A stretch of 55,863 nt of DNA. It comes from an uncultured virus (IMG/VR IMGVR_UViG_3300037507_003964) (Duplodnaviria; Heunggongvirae; Uroviricota; Caudoviricetes). The position numbers were made by a program, and so were the translations under genes. Every line of letters begins with the position of its first letter. The first letter of the stretch is position 1. Shown here piece by piece: positions 13,258-17,368 of the stretch. The stretch lies in the IMG/VR virus record IMGVR_UViG_3300037507_003964; one strand, written 5' to 3'. Under the pieces are notes generated by a model that was not told the origin of the DNA, searched no databases, and was given only the letters and a program-made list of their open reading frames with translations.

Positions 13258-13263
13258 GAAATT

Positions 13264-13338
13264 TGGTGGACCGCTGGAGGATCGAACTGCCAAATTCGGA
13301 TTACAAAACCGACGTTTTACCTTTAGAACTACGGGGGC
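13264..13338 (-). pseudogene. chimeric pseudo-tRNA (Thr-TGT 5' part joined to Ala-type 3' end)
   Basis: 5' GCCCCCG does not pair with 3' GCGGTCC; T-stem GGCAG/CTCCA mismatched; anticodon arm and CCA retained. Confidence 0.7.
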
Positions 13339-13346
13339 GAAAACTA

Positions 13347-13952
13347 TTAAGACTCTAAAAAATACTTTGGTGGAGCATCAGGGATTCGAACCCTGCTGAT
13401 ATCTTCCTTGCAAAGGAAGTGACCACTCCAAGCAGTCCCATGCCCCTCTATAAACTTCTTTACAGTTTCATCATTGTTCCTATGCAACCTAAAATGGTCG
13501 TTCGGACATAGAAAAATTAAATTACTAGGGTGTATGTTTTCTCTATTTTCATCGATATGGTGTACATCTAAGATGTCAGTAACACCACACACAACACAAA
13601 CAGGTTTGTAAAACTTTTCTGCAATTGTCCTATATTGTGTATATCCATACTTTTCTGCCTTTGCTTTTCCCCCAATGCTATTAGCACACACACGGGAGCA
13701 AAAGTATTGATATTTTTCAGGGAATTTCTTTTCTCTTTCTGTCACCTCAAACACAGACTCACAAGTAAAACATTTAACTGAAAATTTTTTGTAACACCCC
13801 ATGTCTCTATCTAATCTTTTATGTAGAGCTTTTATTCCGTTTTGATATGATTCCTCTTTCTTAGGGTTTTTATCACAGTGTCTAGAATGATTAGCTTTTT
13901 CTGAAGATTTTGTAAAATCAAAATATTCTTTACAGTGTTTACAATTCCACAT
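13347..13952 (-). CDS. HNH homing endonuclease with N-terminal Zn-finger-like motifs
   Basis: CKHC...HSRHC, CFTC...FCSRVC, CVVCG...LDVHHIDENRENIHPSNLIFLCPNDH; start MWNCK after AAGGAG. Confidence 0.88.
   Translation of the reverse strand: MWNCKHCKEYFDFTKSSEKANHSRHCDKNPKKEESYQNGIKALHKRLDRDMGCYKKFSVKCFTCESVFEVTEREKKFPEKYQYFCSRVCANSIGGKAKAEKYGYTQYRTIAEKFYKPVCVVCGVTDILDVHHIDENRENIHPSNLIFLCPNDHFRLHRNNDETVKKFIEGHGTAWSGHFLCKEDISRVRIPDAPPKYFLES
13368..13446 (-). tRNA. tRNA-Ala(TGC), inside the 3' end of the HNH ORF
   Basis: GGGGCAT/ATGCTCC acceptor with G3-U70, CTTCC-TTTGCAA-GGAAG, CCA. Confidence 0.85.
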
Positions 13953-13980
13953 ATAAATCTCCTTGTGTAGAGTATTTATA
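13952..13980 (-). promoter_or_regulatory. late promoter TATAAATA within an RBS-sequestering hairpin
   Basis: Minus strand TATAAAT-A-CTC-TACACAAG-GAG-ATTTATA-TG. Confidence 0.75.
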
Positions 13981-13994
13981 CATCGCAATTTTTC

Positions 13995-14031
13995 TACAAA
14001 GGCGGCGTGCTCCCATTATCATTAGCAGCCC
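13995..14031 (-). pseudogene. orphan tRNA 5' half ending in the anticodon loop
   Basis: GGGCTGC-TA-ATGATAATGGGAGCAC-G-CCGCC-TTTGTA, then unrelated AT-rich sequence. Confidence 0.6.
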
Positions 14032-15032
14032 TAAAACTTATAATTTGTCAAACTTGTAAGTTTTATCAATTGTTTATCATACTTGCCGCCAACATTTTGA
14101 TCTCTTAAATTTGCACCCTCAATGGTGAGAAGATCACGAACCATCTCATCACTGTAACCTTTTAAGTTTGAAACAAGCGCCTCAAATCTGTTAGGAAGTG
14201 TGCAAAATTCATAAACTAAACTTTCTGCATATTCGCCAATCAATTCCTTTACCCTCTCTCTAGGAACATGCAAATTATGTTTGAAATACTCTGTACTATA
14301 CATTGAATGAAACATACCTGCATTTCGAACATCATCAGAAACTTCTAAGTTTTCAAGAATCATGCTTGTATTAAATAAATGCTCAAAAAAGGTTCGGTTA
14401 CTATGTGGAATACCCTTAGTGAGAGTCAGTAAGTAATCAACTTTTTCACTTCTAACTCGAACATCTCCTGTCTTAAAAACAAGCACTGTTCTTAAGGCGG
14501 GACAAGCCCGTGATACGGGTCTCGCTGCATGTGTTTTTCTAGAATCAAAAACCAATACCCTTCCAAATTTAGGAAGCACAGCACGCTCTATATCATATCC
14601 GTTAAAGATAACTGTTTCACCCGCCCAATCAATGTGCCATTTCTCGTTTAAGTAAACAACAATAGTTTCTGAATCTTTATCCTCACCATATTTTTGTGTA
14701 TACCAGGGGTCATCAACATGGGCGTACCCGTCTGTTCCAAAAGTGTAGCCGTTGATATAGCAACGCATTAAACTTTTCTGACCGATCAAATCTTTCAATG
14801 TATTCCAAACAAATTGAATATCTTTGTGCCTTTCAATGAAAGGTGTGTCTGACATATCAAAAATTTCATGTTTGGAACAGCGTAGAATCATATTGTTCCA
14901 ATGACCTAGGTCGTATGACTTTTCATTATTAGATTTCCAGCCAAAGCGAAGGCCTGTCGTAGCATACCGACTAACAATTTTTCTAAGTGTGGCGTTGTTT
15001 TCTAATTGAAAGATTTCAGTTTGTCTCATCAT
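14031..15032 (-). CDS. 2OG-Fe(II) oxygenase fused to a DUF6817/HD-like domain
   Basis: GYAHVD (HxD), WAGET, FDSRKTHAARPV...R; C-terminal HSNRTFFEHL...AGMFHSMYST. Confidence 0.8.
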   Translation of the reverse strand: MMRQTEIFQLENNATLRKIVSRYATTGLRFGWKSNNEKSYDLGHWNNMILRCSKHEIFDMSDTPFIERHKDIQFVWNTLKDLIGQKSLMRCYINGYTFGTDGYAHVDDPWYTQKYGEDKDSETIVVYLNEKWHIDWAGETVIFNGYDIERAVLPKFGRVLVFDSRKTHAARPVSRACPALRTVLVFKTGDVRVRSEKVDYLLTLTKGIPHSNRTFFEHLFNTSMILENLEVSDDVRNAGMFHSMYSTEYFKHNLHVPRERVKELIGEYAESLVYEFCTLPNRFEALVSNLKGYSDEMVRDLLTIEGANLRDQNVGGKYDKQLIKLTSLTNYKF

Positions 15033-15039
15033 AATCCTT

Positions 15040-15270
15040 GTGCTCTGACGAACCCCGGTGGTAGTTGTAGCGTATCCGCTGTTGGCTTGCGCCTCACTTC
15101 AATTACACCTTCCACCCACTTCACGACGGGTTCCGTTATCGCATTGCCAGCGCCGGTTAGGTTGGACCGCAGTATTCCTACTGGAGGACTATTAATCCTC
15201 GAACCACCCGTGGGTATCACACCACTTCTCATCGTGCGGGTCGCACTAGCTGCTGATTAGGCAGCACGTT
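15040..15270 (-). ncRNA. unassigned ~230-nt highly structured RNA (or long leader of the oxygenase gene)
   Basis: GC-rich gap with at least nine stems, GGAA and GCAA GNRA loops on the minus strand, own sigma70 promoter. Confidence 0.7.
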
Positions 15271-15283
15271 GTTAACAACTTCA

Positions 15284-15312
15284 ATTCTATGATATGTAAG
15301 TTACTTCGTCAA
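15284..15312 (-). promoter_or_regulatory. sigma70 promoter TTGACG-N17-TAGAAT
   Basis: cgtcaa 15307-15312, attcta 15284-15289. Confidence 0.7.
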
Positions 15313-15326
15313 CCACGAATAAAACT

Positions 15327-15890
15327 TTATTCAGATTCCTTTGGGTGACCTACACCAATCTTAACATGCGGTTGCCCGCCAATAGTTCTCTCATAGTGAC
15401 CTGTATCACCTACAGGTTTTAGCGTCTTTCCTGTCAACTTTTTCATCTTCTCTACAGATATCACAGGCAATCCCATCTTCATTGAGATGGCTTCTGGTGC
15501 ACCTGACACTTCTCCCCAGGCTCTTTTCATTTCGTGATCTTCAAGTTTATTCTTCATGAAGTCAGCTTTTCCTTGAGGAGTCCCATCTGTTGCAGCGGCG
15601 ATTGACTTTCTACCGAATTGTTTTTTGTATAAGTTCACAGAAGTAATCTTCTCACCTCTTCGAGTCATCTTAATCAATGACGATGAAATATCTGAATGAA
15701 TCGCTTTCGACTCTTCTTCAGACCCAGACTTCAATCCACCATATCCTCCAATCGAAGGATGTGAATATGACTTCTTTATCATATCATGGATTTGACCCCT
15801 GTATTGCTCACGAAACTTCTCATGCTCAGGTTTGATGCCGGGAGAAAGAATTGCTTCATCAAGTTGTAAAAAGTTTTTGAAGTCTAACAT
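15327..15890 (-). CDS. late basic protein with capsid-targeting-like N-terminus
   Basis: MLDFKNFLQLDE leader; TATAAATA at 15912-15919. Confidence 0.75.
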   Translation of the reverse strand: MLDFKNFLQLDEAILSPGIKPEHEKFREQYRGQIHDMIKKSYSHPSIGGYGGLKSGSEEESKAIHSDISSSLIKMTRRGEKITSVNLYKKQFGRKSIAAATDGTPQGKADFMKNKLEDHEMKRAWGEVSGAPEAISMKMGLPVISVEKMKKLTGKTLKPVGDTGHYERTIGGQPHVKIGVGHPKESE

Positions 15891-15919
15891 AGAAACCCCC
15901 TTGTTTCTATGTATTTATA
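15888..15919 (-). promoter_or_regulatory. late promoter plus 9-bp hairpin over RBS and start codon
   Basis: CATAGAAAC/GTTTCTATG stem at 15888-15911 directly after TATAAATA. Confidence 0.75.
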
Positions 15920-15922
15920 TTT

Positions 15923-16000
15923 TGGAGAAGGATATCGGAATCTAACCGACGGGGTTAGAGTTTTGCAGACTCTTGCATTGGGCCTCTCTGCCATCTGTGC
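15923..16000 (-). pseudogene. pseudo/chimeric tRNA-Cys(GCA)
   Basis: Perfect anticodon arm AGAGT-CTGCAAA-ACTCT, but acceptor strands GCACAGA and ATCCTTC do not pair; T-loop reads TTAGATT. Confidence 0.7.
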
Positions 16001-16094: not shown

Positions 16095-16099
16095 ATCTA

Positions 16100-16280
16100 A
16101 TGTATCGTCATGTTATTGATGCCTTCACCGTACACCGTTTGGTTTTAACGTTCAGGTTTATCCTTCAAGCGTCCATGAAGTATTCACCTTTCAACCAACT
16201 CCTGATTGCAAGTATCCGGTCATGCAACCACTCAGAGATCCACTAACCTGCGATCACAGGTATATTCCATAACGATACAT
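16100..16280 (-). ncRNA. unassigned ~180-nt multibranch RNA between two tRNAs
   Basis: 13-bp closing stem 16100-16112/16268-16280 and several internal stems; G-U wobbles work only on the minus strand. Confidence 0.65.
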
Positions 16281-16284
16281 CACA

Positions 16285-16361: not shown

Positions 16362-16366
16362 GATAA

Positions 16367-16380
16367 TTTTTTAAAGAACG
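16367..16380 (-). promoter_or_regulatory. boxA-like antitermination element
   Basis: CGTTCTTTAAAAA just before tRNA-Leu; resembles rrn/lambda boxA (TGCTCTTTAACA). Confidence 0.45.
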
Positions 16381-16470
16381 TGCTATGGGCCCCACCTCGC
16401 CTCATAGCATGGCGTCCATCTGACCAACGCCTTTCCCTTGCCTCATGCGTCAGAGTTGACTAACGACTTA
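16381..16470 (-). ncRNA. small structured element with potential pseudoknot
   Basis: Stems TGCTATG/CATAGCA and GGCGT/ACGCC; loop GTCAGA complementary to upstream TCTGAC. Confidence 0.4.
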
Positions 16471-16487
16471 TAGAGGACTTTAGATAT

Positions 16488-16602: not shown

Positions 16603-16653
16603 ATTATATATACGACTTTAGTAGTTGTCAACTGGTGTTGCAAAAATACAACA
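16603..16653 (-). promoter_or_regulatory. sigma70 promoter TTGACA-N17-TATAAT with TGTTG-N8-CAACA box
   Basis: attata 16603-08, tgtcaa 16626-31, box 16636-16653. Confidence 0.85.
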
Positions 16654-16810: not shown

Positions 16811-17368
16811 TTAAAATAAACTTTCTTTGCGATTAAAATACGTAATGGGCCTTACATAACTAAAATGTTCTACTGCTTCGCTGAATTCAAAGGATCGATG
16901 ACCTCGCATTGCTGTATGAAATTCACCTGCTCGATTGGCATGAAACTTTCCTACATCATGCACCTCTCCCATTCCGGGCCAACCACCCTCCCGTGTCCCA
17001 TGCAACTTAGCGTTCTCTTCAGTTGCAGATTTATGAAGAACAGAATCTTGTCCATACTTCTGCCCATGCTGTTTTAGAAAAGATAGCAATTGTCCTTTGT
17101 CATCACCTTTCTTACCTACAACCAAATCCTCATCTACTGCTCTAGCTTTATCTGTACCATGATTTTCAATGTATCGACCTTTAACTTTTACAAACCCATA
17201 CCCCGCACCTCGAATACTTTTCTCTAGCTCCTTATTGCGAGATGAGTTCTCTTTTGCAGTATTCTCACCTCGATGAGCAGTAATCATTCCAATGTTTCTG
17301 TTCTGAACGTGTGAATGTACTCTGCTGAGACTAGCTTCTTGCAAGAAATCTTTAAAGGTGGTAGACAT
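16811..17368 (-). CDS. late protein with capsid-targeting-like N-terminus
   Basis: MSTTFKDFLQE leader; GATAAATA at 17390-17397; ATAGAAA/TTTCTAT hairpin over RBS. Confidence 0.8.
   Translation of the reverse strand: MSTTFKDFLQEASLSRVHSHVQNRNIGMITAHRGENTAKENSSRNKELEKSIRGAGYGFVKVKGRYIENHGTDKARAVDEDLVVGKKGDDKGQLLSFLKQHGQKYGQDSVLHKSATEENAKLHGTREGGWPGMGEVHDVGKFHANRAGEFHTAMRGHRSFEFSEAVEHFSYVRPITYFNRKESLF

What the first reader, a model, noticed from the sequence alone, without database searches (positions are those of the whole stretch)
15040..15270. Large unassigned structured RNA with its own promoter
Seen (plus coordinates): terminal stem 15040-44/15263-67; long stem 15057-69/15104-16 (11 of 13) enclosing AGCG-GATA-CGCT and GGC-GCAA-GCC hairpins; stem 15048-55/15128-36; hairpins CAGTA-GGAA-TACTG, GAGGAT/GTCCTC, CGGT/ACCG, GTGG/CCAC, GTGCG/CGCAC and GCTGC/GCAGC. 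It has two GNRA loops on the minus strand, a TTGACG-N17-TAGAAT promoter just upstream and high GC in AT-rich surroundings. The 5' hairpin competes with the terminal stem that ends next to the oxygenase SD. It lacks the hallmarks I know for tmRNA, RNase P, SRP, 6S or small ribozymes. Inference: best candidate here for an undescribed phage ncRNA, ribozyme or riboswitch.
Basis: partly seen in the sequence, partly recalled or inferred. Interest (0 to 1): 0.8.

Follow-up and report, generated by a model that had tools for sequence, protein, structure and literature searches.

The report
Triple-knotted RNA in phage tRNA operons
This stretch is a real gene for an intricately folded RNA of about 230 bases, from a family that many uncultured large phages carry among their tRNA genes; no RNA catalogue searched lists it, it is probably not a switch for the next gene, and its job is still unproven.

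Summary
The RNA is real (minus strand, 15270-15041). On its own it folds no better than shuffles (z -1.07), but collection scans gave 235 distinct full-length relatives of 176-290 nt. A 54-pair model holds in 93.5% of cells against 77.8% shuffled. The 5' core has two pseudoknots and a loop-loop kiss, each with compensatory variants. The 3' arm has a conserved 7-nt bulge and usually a K-turn-like motif. There is no Rfam match.

It behaves as a stand-alone RNA of phage tRNA operons: 62 of 120 members start 0-4 nt after a tRNA, and only 25 of 120 precede an ORF.

Closest analogue is manA: same setting and similar loop modules, reported to form RNA cages. Membership failed in both directions. Best guess is a self-assembling structural RNA (0.4). 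Rivals are a protein-binding or decoy RNA (0.27) and a tRNA-trailer ribozyme (0.17). This scan found what appears to be this family before, on two other genomes.

The parts
15041..15270 (-). RNA gene, whole conserved unit (230 nt here; 176-290 nt in the family), from the conserved AACG to the conserved 3' AGCA
   Evidence: nhmmer profile hit 15270-15041, E 5.5e-48, single copy in the window; covariance model R1 90.4 bits; alignment A2
15249..15265 (-). P1 hairpin; its loop (AUCA, 15257-15254) is complementary to the P3 loop
   Evidence: 5 of 5 pairs change on both sides, 96.6% of cells paired; kiss test
15234..15246 (-). P2 hairpin with loop GACCC; ACCC (15241-15238) is the 5' strand of pseudoknot 1
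   Evidence: helix 3, 99.5% paired; helix 4, 100% paired; compensated variants
15226..15233 (-). Conserved purine-rich linker J2/3 (GA...GAAG)
   Evidence: invariant and near-invariant columns
15210..15225 (-). P3 hairpin; loop UGAU (15219-15216) is the kissing partner of the P1 loop
   Evidence: helix 5; own-pair complementarity 8.93 against 7.23 +/- 0.25 permuted, 0 of 10000
15202..15209 (-). G-rich strand: GGGU pairs with the P2 loop (pseudoknot 1) and the adjoining GGU pairs with the P6 loop (pseudoknot 2)
   Evidence: helices 4 and 6; a variant lineage changes both strand and both loops
15170..15200 (-). Variable insertion, two hairpins here (one with a GGAA tetraloop); absent in many members
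   Evidence: gapped block of alignment A2
15154..15169 (-). P6 hairpin with 8-nt loop carrying ACC (3' strand of pseudoknot 2)
   Evidence: helix 7; top mutual-information pairs
15140..15152 (-). P7: 3-bp stem with a conserved 7-nt loop (URGCAAU in most members)
   Evidence: helix 8, 100% paired; loop counts
15048..15136 (-). 3' arm: long irregular helix with a conserved 7-nt bulge (15126-15120), a conserved asymmetric internal loop, a K-turn-like motif (15103-15097 with 15078-15074) and a variable tip hairpin (GCAA loop, 15093-15084)
   Evidence: helices 9-14; MFE of the arm; C/D-like boxes in 133 of 235 distinct members and bulge counts. The K-turn reading rests on recalled consensus rules.
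15284..15312 (-). Sigma70-like promoter match, 10 of 12, 13 nt before the RNA; may be real here, not a family trait
   Evidence: 2 of 49 members
14031..15032 (-). Downstream 2OG-Fe(II) oxygenase + DUF6817 gene, start codon 8 nt after the RNA; neighbour in this phage only
15327..15890 (-). Upstream 187-aa ORF without Pfam match; neighbour in this phage only

Best explanation
A stand-alone, non-coding structural RNA of phage tRNA operons. SHOWN by comparison: (1) it is a conserved gene-like unit with fixed ends that turns up beside many different tRNA genes; (2) its 5' half folds into hairpins P1, P2, P3, P6 and P7, locked by three long-range pairings (P2 loop with GGGU, GGU with the P6 loop, P1 loop with P3 loop); (3) its 3' half is one long irregular helix with a conserved bulge, a conserved internal loop and usually a K-turn-like bend. 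INFERRED: (4) it is co-transcribed with the tRNAs and released by the host's tRNA-maturation nucleases, as is known for T4's stable RNAs (recalled); (5) at least one of the three short loop pairings is made between molecules, so that the RNA builds a closed RNA-only oligomer, as reported for manA, GOLLD and ROOL, the other orphan RNAs of phage tRNA regions, and serves as a scaffold or store during infection, plausibly for tRNA or translation components. I put steps 1-3 at about 0.95, step 4 at about 0.8 and step 5 at about 0.4.
For: Covariation: 43 of 54 pairs change on both sides; covariation score 0.440 against 0.167 shuffled and 0.07-0.09 slid. Pseudoknot 1 occurs as ACCC/GGGU, GUCC/GGAC, G(U)CCC/GGGC, ACAC/GUGU and ACUC/GAGU. 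Kiss: 33 of 43 loop combinations give 4 or more pairs with their own partner against 47% with a foreign one. Context: 71 of 82 long loci have same-strand tRNAs and none has opposite-strand tRNAs; 62 of 120 follow one of 11 tRNA types directly; 45 of 120 are followed by a tRNA within 30 nt. No shared protein neighbour. All 78 hits anchored on the 5' core belong to the family and 70 reach the 3' end of the profile. Contigs of family members are present in 4 of 4 RNA libraries laid, from 3 studies (presence only). Analogy: manA lies between two tRNAs in S-CREM1 and directly before a tRNA in ACG-2014f (read from the sequence); the Rfam manA consensus has a GUGGUG loop, a variable GNRA hairpin and an ACCA loop in the same order as here; manA oligomers are held by intermolecular kissing loops (bioRxiv 10.64898/2026.07.01.735769); in GOLLD and ROOL some pairings first found by covariation proved intermolecular (PMC12286853).
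Against: No experiment shows oligomers, a mature RNA or a function. By ordinary H-type pseudoknot geometry (my reasoning, no model built) all three pairings fit inside one molecule, so covariation does not require assembly. Homology to manA failed in both directions, and the shared motifs are 3-5 nt and could be convergent. My mapping of the preprint's loop numbers onto the Rfam consensus is inferred; its figures and supplements were not seen. Pseudoknot 2 variation comes essentially from one lineage, and its register is uncertain. Two uncompensated cases exist (L101 in pseudoknot 1, L391 in pseudoknot 2). The kiss columns pair in only 77.9% of aligned cells. The shuffle and permutation tests ignore relatedness. 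The spacer after the upstream tRNA is much sharper than ordinary tRNA spacers, which this explanation does not account for.
Confidence: 0.4

Rival explanations
1. Monomeric, compactly folded RNA that works through a protein or the ribosome: the knotted core and the conserved bulges form a binding surface and the K-turn-like bend recruits an L7Ae-family host protein, making it a decoy or modulator (for example of tRNA-cutting defence nucleases or of translation factors).
For: All three pairings can be intramolecular (reasoning). Many invariant unpaired bases. C/D-like boxes in 133 of 235 members. Co-location with tRNAs. Patchy presence among related phages, 3 of 11 hsp20 loci with 3 or more tRNAs, two of them copies of this phage, as expected for accessory counter-defence cargo.
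Against: No phage protein travels with it. The K-turn-like tip is missing in some members such as L197 and L192. No acceptor-stem/T-arm mimic or 3' CCA is visible. No host partner was tested.
Confidence: 0.27
2. A new class of ribozyme tied to tRNA 3' ends: the knotted core cleaves at or just after the upstream CCA, or acts on tRNA precursors, as theta ribozymes do but with an unrelated, larger fold.
For: 48 of 62 tRNA-adjacent members start exactly 1 nt after the called tRNA end, across 11 tRNA types, whereas only 7 of 305 tRNA-tRNA spacers in the same loci are 1 nt. Theta ribozymes show similar figures: 58% tRNA-associated, 77% of those within 1 nt (PMC10879173). A double pseudoknot with many invariant bases is what catalytic RNAs look like.
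Against: 58 of 120 members, including this one, have no called tRNA directly upstream. The adjacent tRNA genes mostly encode CCA, unlike theta-associated tRNAs (4.5%). T4 rnaD also starts 1 nt after a tRNA. The 5' leader does not pair detectably with the core (1846 of 10000). RNA-library contigs run from a tRNA end into the RNA uncut (DNA cannot be excluded). No HDV topology and no Rfam ribozyme hit.
Confidence: 0.17
3. Riboswitch or other cis-regulator of the downstream gene.
For: Here the RNA ends 8 nt before the oxygenase start codon and has a promoter-like site upstream. 25 of 120 members precede an ORF. manA was first proposed as a riboswitch candidate (PMC2864571).
Against: 45 of 120 are followed by a tRNA and 50 by other non-coding DNA. 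Downstream genes are unrelated. The proposed terminal stem is complete in 5 of 105. No terminator-like site overlaps the RNA.
Confidence: 0.06
4. T-box-like RNA that grips the tRNA 3' NCCA end through its GGUGG strand.
For: The strand resembles the T-box antiterminator sequence (recalled) and the RNA lives among tRNAs.
Against: The strand changes to GGACCUU together with its own two partner loops in 10 distinct sequences, which an invariant CCA could not follow. No T-box hit in Rfam.
Confidence: 0.02

Closest known systems
manA RNA (Rfam RF01745; PMC2864571; cryo-EM preprint 10.64898/2026.07.01.735769)
   Same: About 200 nt; in T4-like phages, packed against tRNA genes; a GUGGU-type segment, a variable GNRA hairpin and an ACC-bearing loop in the same order; a second loop pair of the UGUCA/UGACA kind in S-CREM1 (read); function unknown.
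   Different: No score in either direction. manA has a closing terminal helix and holds GUGGUG in a hairpin loop; here there is no conserved terminal helix, the G-rich strand forms two adjoining pseudoknots, and the long 3' arm with its 7-nt bulge has no counterpart in the manA consensus.
GOLLD (RF02032) and ROOL (RF03087) RNAs
   Same: Orphan, pseudoknot-rich phage RNAs often near tRNA islands, with no protein partner identified for ROOL; loop pairings found by covariation.
   Different: Three to four times longer (659 and 833 nt in the solved examples); no Rfam hit here; cage formation untested here.
Theta ribozymes (minimal HDV-like; PMC10879173)
   Same: Doubly pseudoknotted RNA starting within a base or two of a phage tRNA 3' end in about half of the cases.
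   Different: Much larger, with a different helix order from the nested HDV fold (recalled); upstream tRNA genes here mostly encode CCA; no cleavage shown; no Rfam hit.
Phage T4 rnaC and rnaD (species 1 and 2 stable RNAs)
   Same: Stable non-tRNA products of a T4-type tRNA operon; rnaD starts 1 nt after tRNA-Arg.
   Different: 139 and 119 nt; no profile hit and best model score 5.7 bits, E 3.7.

Membership tests
manA (RF01745) | Score at or above the Rfam gathering threshold (55.2 bits) | tested here: not met
   No manA hit at E <= 10 on window 14900-15450, nor at E <= 1 on 9 loci carrying diverse members, while the S-CREM1 control scored 96.6 bits in the same call
manA (RF01745) | Reciprocal similarity: a model of this family finds manA | tested here: not met
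   nhmmer: no hit on L327 or L489 at E <= 20. Model R1 with filters off: none on L327, 7 bits on the opposite strand of L489, against 67-85 bits for 5 members not in the model
manA (RF01745) | Terminal closing helix and multiloop holding the GUGGUG and ACCA hairpins | tested here: not met
   A 5'/3' terminal stem is complete in 5 of 105; the G-rich strand is pseudoknotted, not a hairpin loop
manA (RF01745) | Complementary loop pairs that covary | tested here: met
   Three such pairings; whether they correspond to manA's is not shown
manA / GOLLD / ROOL | RNA-only homo-oligomer through intermolecular kissing loops | not testable with these tools
   Needs mass photometry or cryo-EM
GOLLD / ROOL | Length above 500 nt and a match to the family model | tested here: not met
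   176-290 nt; no hit
Theta / HDV-like ribozymes | 5' end adjacent to a phage tRNA 3' end | tested here: met
   62 of 120 within 4 nt; not in this window's copy
Theta / HDV-like ribozymes | Nested double pseudoknot of the HDV order with a catalytic C | tested here: not met
   Covarying helices follow a different order (HDV order recalled); no Rfam ribozyme hit
Theta / HDV-like ribozymes | Site-specific self-cleavage | not testable with these tools
   Needs an in vitro cleavage assay
Riboswitch / cis-regulatory leader | Consistent position upstream of functionally related genes | tested here: not met
   25 of 120 precede an ORF; largest neighbour protein cluster 11 of 89 loci
Riboswitch / cis-regulatory leader | Conserved expression platform (terminator or ribosome-site switch) | tested here: not met
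   Terminal stem complete in 5 of 105; no terminator-like site over the RNA
T-box RNA | Invariant UGGN bulge free to pair with tRNA NCCA | tested here: not met
   The strand covaries with the RNA's own loops and loses UGG in 10 distinct sequences
T4 rnaC / rnaD | Sequence or structure similarity | tested here: not met
tmRNA, RNase P, SRP, 6S | Match to the Rfam or ARAGORN model | tested here: not met
   the only trace is permuted tmRNA at 22.7 bits against a 47-bit threshold (E 0.59) on L256

The most novel reading that the evidence does not exclude
A new class of large ribozyme of about 200 nt, unrelated to HDV/theta, that phages place a fixed distance behind tRNA genes to cut or otherwise process tRNA precursors, with the triple-knotted core as active site and the 3' arm as substrate-binding arm.
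Probability: 0.15. Interest if true: 0.93.

Novelty: new variant of a known kind. Interest (0 to 1): 0.72.

Why it matters
Large, highly conserved, pseudoknotted RNAs of unknown function are rare, and the known ones from phage tRNA regions (GOLLD, ROOL, manA) have recently been reported to build protein-free cages. This family is short enough to transcribe in one piece. It has at least 185 sequence clusters with natural compensatory swaps in all three long-range pairings, so whether those pairings form within or between molecules can be tested directly by mixing two natural variants. A cage would show that RNA self-assembly is a recurring strategy in phage tRNA operons. Cleavage activity would mean a new ribozyme class. 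Either result bears on the open question of why large phages carry stable RNAs among their tRNAs.

Tried and rejected
Single-sequence folding: no signal (z -1.07; -1.6 to +2.2 for 20 members), so MFE tests miss this family.

Rfam: nothing above threshold or at permissive E-values; a 16-nt c4-a1b1 match at E 9.1 is chance.

Cultured and deposited phages: blastn with this RNA and two other members found only short chance matches or none among 50,697 records, so no host could be named. The nearest held virus record G001 gave no match; it is a fragment, so this shows nothing.

Neighbour proteins as bait: the oxygenase and the 187-aa ORF returned only identical copies; Hsp20 gave one true relative, L027.

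Bacterial and archaeal genomes: 1 of 41 pattern matches was real, on a 5.9-kb contig of a Bacteroidota MAG next to tRNA genes; it may be a binned phage fragment and is not taken as a host assignment. One pattern does not prove absence.

Coding: the two ORFs overlapping the RNA (83 and 67 aa) have no Pfam match, and the family has indels of arbitrary length.

A fourth pairing between the 5' leader and J2/3: rejected (1846 of 10000). T-box-like CCA binding: rejected. Conserved own promoter: rejected. Protein partner: none.

Literature: nine answered searches (of which 76 was for theta ribozymes only) showed no description. The IMG/VR candidate set of PMC10690425 could hold fragments of this family: its motif search found nothing, but files 1, 2 and 4 were not searched and three further files could not be read.

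Full report
Setting. The window is part of a T4-like phage: Hsp20, RegA and clamp-loader genes lie at 17.4-20.0 kb, and the clamp loader's best deposited relatives are 58% identical, in Methylophilales phages. Eight of the window's ten called tRNA genes lie on the minus strand between 13.0 and 16.8 kb, behind promoter matches of 12/12 and 11/12 at 16631 and 16784. The finding sits inside this tRNA region, on the same strand, between a 187-aa ORF without a Pfam match and a 2OG-Fe(II) oxygenase gene.

Observation. The stems, hairpins, promoter match and raised G+C are present at the stated coordinates. Taken alone they are not above chance: folding z is -1.07 and promoter-like sites are about as frequent as in shuffles. 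Rfam gives nothing at the gathering threshold or at E <= 10 apart from a 16-nt chance match.

Finding relatives. Loci fetched around Hsp20 relatives held one diverged copy, L027 (E 4.7e-27), with different neighbours on both sides and a tRNA-Ala gene directly behind it. Patterns from its conserved blocks were scanned in IMG/VR, metagenomes and GTDB genomes. An iterated profile hit 207 of 326 loci at the first stage, 94 of 119 metagenome loci, 78 of 78 loci from a pattern using only the 5' core and 1 of 41 GTDB loci. In all, 379 of 567 loci carry it (with repeats of the same contig); 355 are full length, 235 distinct, in 185 clusters, 176-290 nt, median 205. Carrier contigs reach 524 kb. Presence is patchy among related phages (3 of 11 tRNA-bearing hsp20 loci), and it occurs once in this window.

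Alignment used. Of 125 non-redundant sequences, 5 partial ones were dropped. I left out 15 more by eye, 14 close to others already included and L145 with a misaligned 3' end, and replaced L076 by the identical window copy, giving 105 rows (A2; mean core identity 68%).

Structure. RNAalifold predicted 29 pairs, 25 with changes on both sides. A hand-completed model of 54 pairs is paired in 93.5% of 5594 cells, against 77.8 +/- 0.3% shuffled and 38-48% when slid; 43 pairs change on both sides. The model was derived from this alignment and the controls ignore relatedness, but many helices swap between G-C, C-G and A-U in dozens of sequences. The 5' core consists of hairpins P1, P2, P3, P6 and P7. 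Pseudoknot 1 joins the P2 loop to GGGU. Among 282 parsed loci (of 301 with a hit at that stage) it appears as ACCC/GGGU in 255, GUCC/GGAC in 12, G(U)CCC/GGGC in 6, ACAC/GUGU in 4 and ACUC/GAGU in 1, with one G-U variant and 3 loci of one uncompensated sequence. Pseudoknot 2 joins the next three bases, GGU, to ACC in the P6 loop; in the GGAC lineage the strand becomes pyrimidine-rich and the loop gains GG, a single evolutionary event with uncertain register, and L391 breaks one pair uncompensated. The P1 and P3 loops are complementary: own partner 8.93 against 7.23 +/- 0.25 for permuted partners, 0 of 10000, over 43 distinct loop combinations. A variable insertion of none, one or more hairpins sits between the G-rich strand and P6. 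The 3' arm is a long helix with a conserved 7-nt bulge, an invariant bulged G, an asymmetric internal loop, and in 133 of 235 members C/D-like boxes that by recalled rules form a K-turn; the window's copy has a K-turn-like arrangement with variant letters. The RNA ends in a conserved AGCA.

The terminal stem is complete in 5 of 105 members. The AGCG-GAUA-CGCU hairpin competes with the conserved arm helix and is not conserved. A good promoter within 70 nt was seen in 2 of 49 members lacking an adjacent CCA.

Context. Of 120 full-length members, 62 begin 0-4 nt after a tRNA (48 at exactly 1 nt from my start mark; 11 tRNA types, Tyr 22 of 62), 45 are followed by a tRNA within 30 nt, 25 by an ORF of 50 or more codons within 80 nt, and 50 by other DNA; 71 of 82 long loci have same-strand tRNAs and none has opposite-strand ones. 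Ordinary tRNA-tRNA spacers in these loci peak at 5-6 nt, with 7 of 305 at 1 nt; measured to the first paired base of P1 the distance is about 6 nt, so the mean is ordinary but the sharpness is not. No protein family is a regular neighbour. This is the pattern of a stand-alone gene of a tRNA operon, not of a leader.

Expression. Four RNA libraries from three studies hold contigs of family members over 15041-15270 at summed depths up to about 320, some running from a tRNA end into the RNA. These are contigs from relatives; they show presence, not level, strand or ends, and DNA cannot be excluded.

Mechanism. The comparative data fix the fold but not the job. I favour a structural RNA that self-assembles through its loop pairings (0.4), because the other orphan RNAs of phage tRNA regions do so: manA forms 8-, 10- and 60-mers through kissing loops, and GOLLD and ROOL form cages in which some covarying contacts are intermolecular. 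manA sits between tRNA-Leu and tRNA-Asn in S-CREM1, and its consensus shows a GUGGUG loop, a variable GNRA hairpin and an ACCA loop in the order seen here. Against this, all three pairings can be made within one chain by standard pseudoknot geometry (reasoning only), which fits a monomeric protein-binding or decoy RNA (0.27). The fixed spacing behind tRNA ends resembles theta ribozymes and keeps a ribozyme in play (0.17), although half the members lack an adjacent tRNA, T4 rnaD also follows a tRNA at 1 nt, and no pairing of the leader was found. A riboswitch (0.06) and a T-box-like RNA (0.02) are contradicted by context and covariation.

Membership and novelty. It is not manA, GOLLD, ROOL, a theta ribozyme, T4 rnaC or rnaD, tmRNA, RNase P, SRP or 6S. 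It works like, at best, the manA/GOLLD/ROOL kind: a new fold within a known loose class. Searches of the paper library showed no description, but subscription papers are mostly missing and the candidate models of PMC10690425 could not be checked. Four earlier notes of this scan, on two other genomes, describe what appears to be the same family (matched by 3 shared words each and by their descriptions). I read them after reaching this reading, and took from them the T4 comparison, which I then ran. A fifth note describes an enlarged manA-like RNA in another phage; I did not test whether it is related.

Papers seen: PMC2864571 passages; PMC9964418 passages with Table 4; bioRxiv 10.64898/2026.07.01.735769 parts 1-2 of 5 and passages, figures and supplements not seen, and its secondary-structure supplements bear on the manA comparison; PMC12286853 passages; PMC10879173 passages; PMC10690425 passages, file list and a partial supplement search; PMC10085705 and bioRxiv 10.64898/2026.09.22.753630 passages, nothing relevant. 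K-turn, T-box, HDV and pseudoknot-geometry rules are recalled.

Verdict: a real and so far uncatalogued RNA family with a well-supported triple-knotted fold; function unproven but directly testable. Interest 0.72.

Noticed in passing
window 16362-16487 (-): A second conserved non-coding element in the gap between tRNA-Ile and tRNA-Leu. Diverged copies with apparently compensatory changes lie in L043, L020, L021, L027, L016, L001 and L008; no Rfam match. Likely another uncatalogued phage RNA family.
   Followed up: partly
window 16096-16284 (-): 189-nt gap between tRNA-Leu and tRNA-Ser closed by a terminal stem of about 15 bp; found again only in the identical copy L005; no Rfam match.
   Followed up: partly
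window 15913-15993 and 13263-13340 (-): A tRNA-Cys and a tRNA-Thr(UGU)-like gene whose 3' halves do not pair with their 5' halves and differ from the intact versions in L001, whose neighbouring genes are identical to the window's; ARAGORN misses both. Recombination at the T-loop or an assembly chimera.
   Followed up: partly
window 13347-13988 (-): 213-aa ORF with zinc-finger-like and HNH-like motifs (read by eye; no Pfam hit) whose 3' end overlaps the called tRNA-Ala at 13368-13446; probably a homing endonuclease.
   Followed up: no
window 16811-17368 (-): 185-aa protein with a match to the S-adenosylmethionine lyase family (E 6.6e-11) directly upstream of the tRNA cluster; its N-terminus and that of the 187-aa ORF resemble the capsid-targeting sequence of T4 internal proteins (recalled).
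   Followed up: no
L213, L227, L247, L264 and L256, L265, L218, L212, directly 3' of the family RNA: Two further recurrent non-coding modules follow the RNA in many large-phage loci: a hairpin-closed element of about 75 nt and a longer element of about 160 nt before the next tRNA; Rfam lists nothing for the one in L256.
   Followed up: no
L280:762-868 (+): A partial second copy of the 5' part of the RNA about 600 nt upstream of a full copy, the only second copy seen among the loci of that call.
   Followed up: no
L027, L318, L303, L206 (5' end of the RNA): In several members without an upstream tRNA, a short upstream ORF appears to run into the RNA and stop inside P1 (read by eye); stop codons occur there in more than one frame, so this may mean nothing.
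   Followed up: no
L489:580-770 (NC_026927.1): The manA-like RNA of cyanophage ACG-2014f is unannotated in the record, lies directly before an unannotated tRNA, and that pair is followed by a 2OG-Fe(II) oxygenase gene, as the RNA of this window is.
   Followed up: partly
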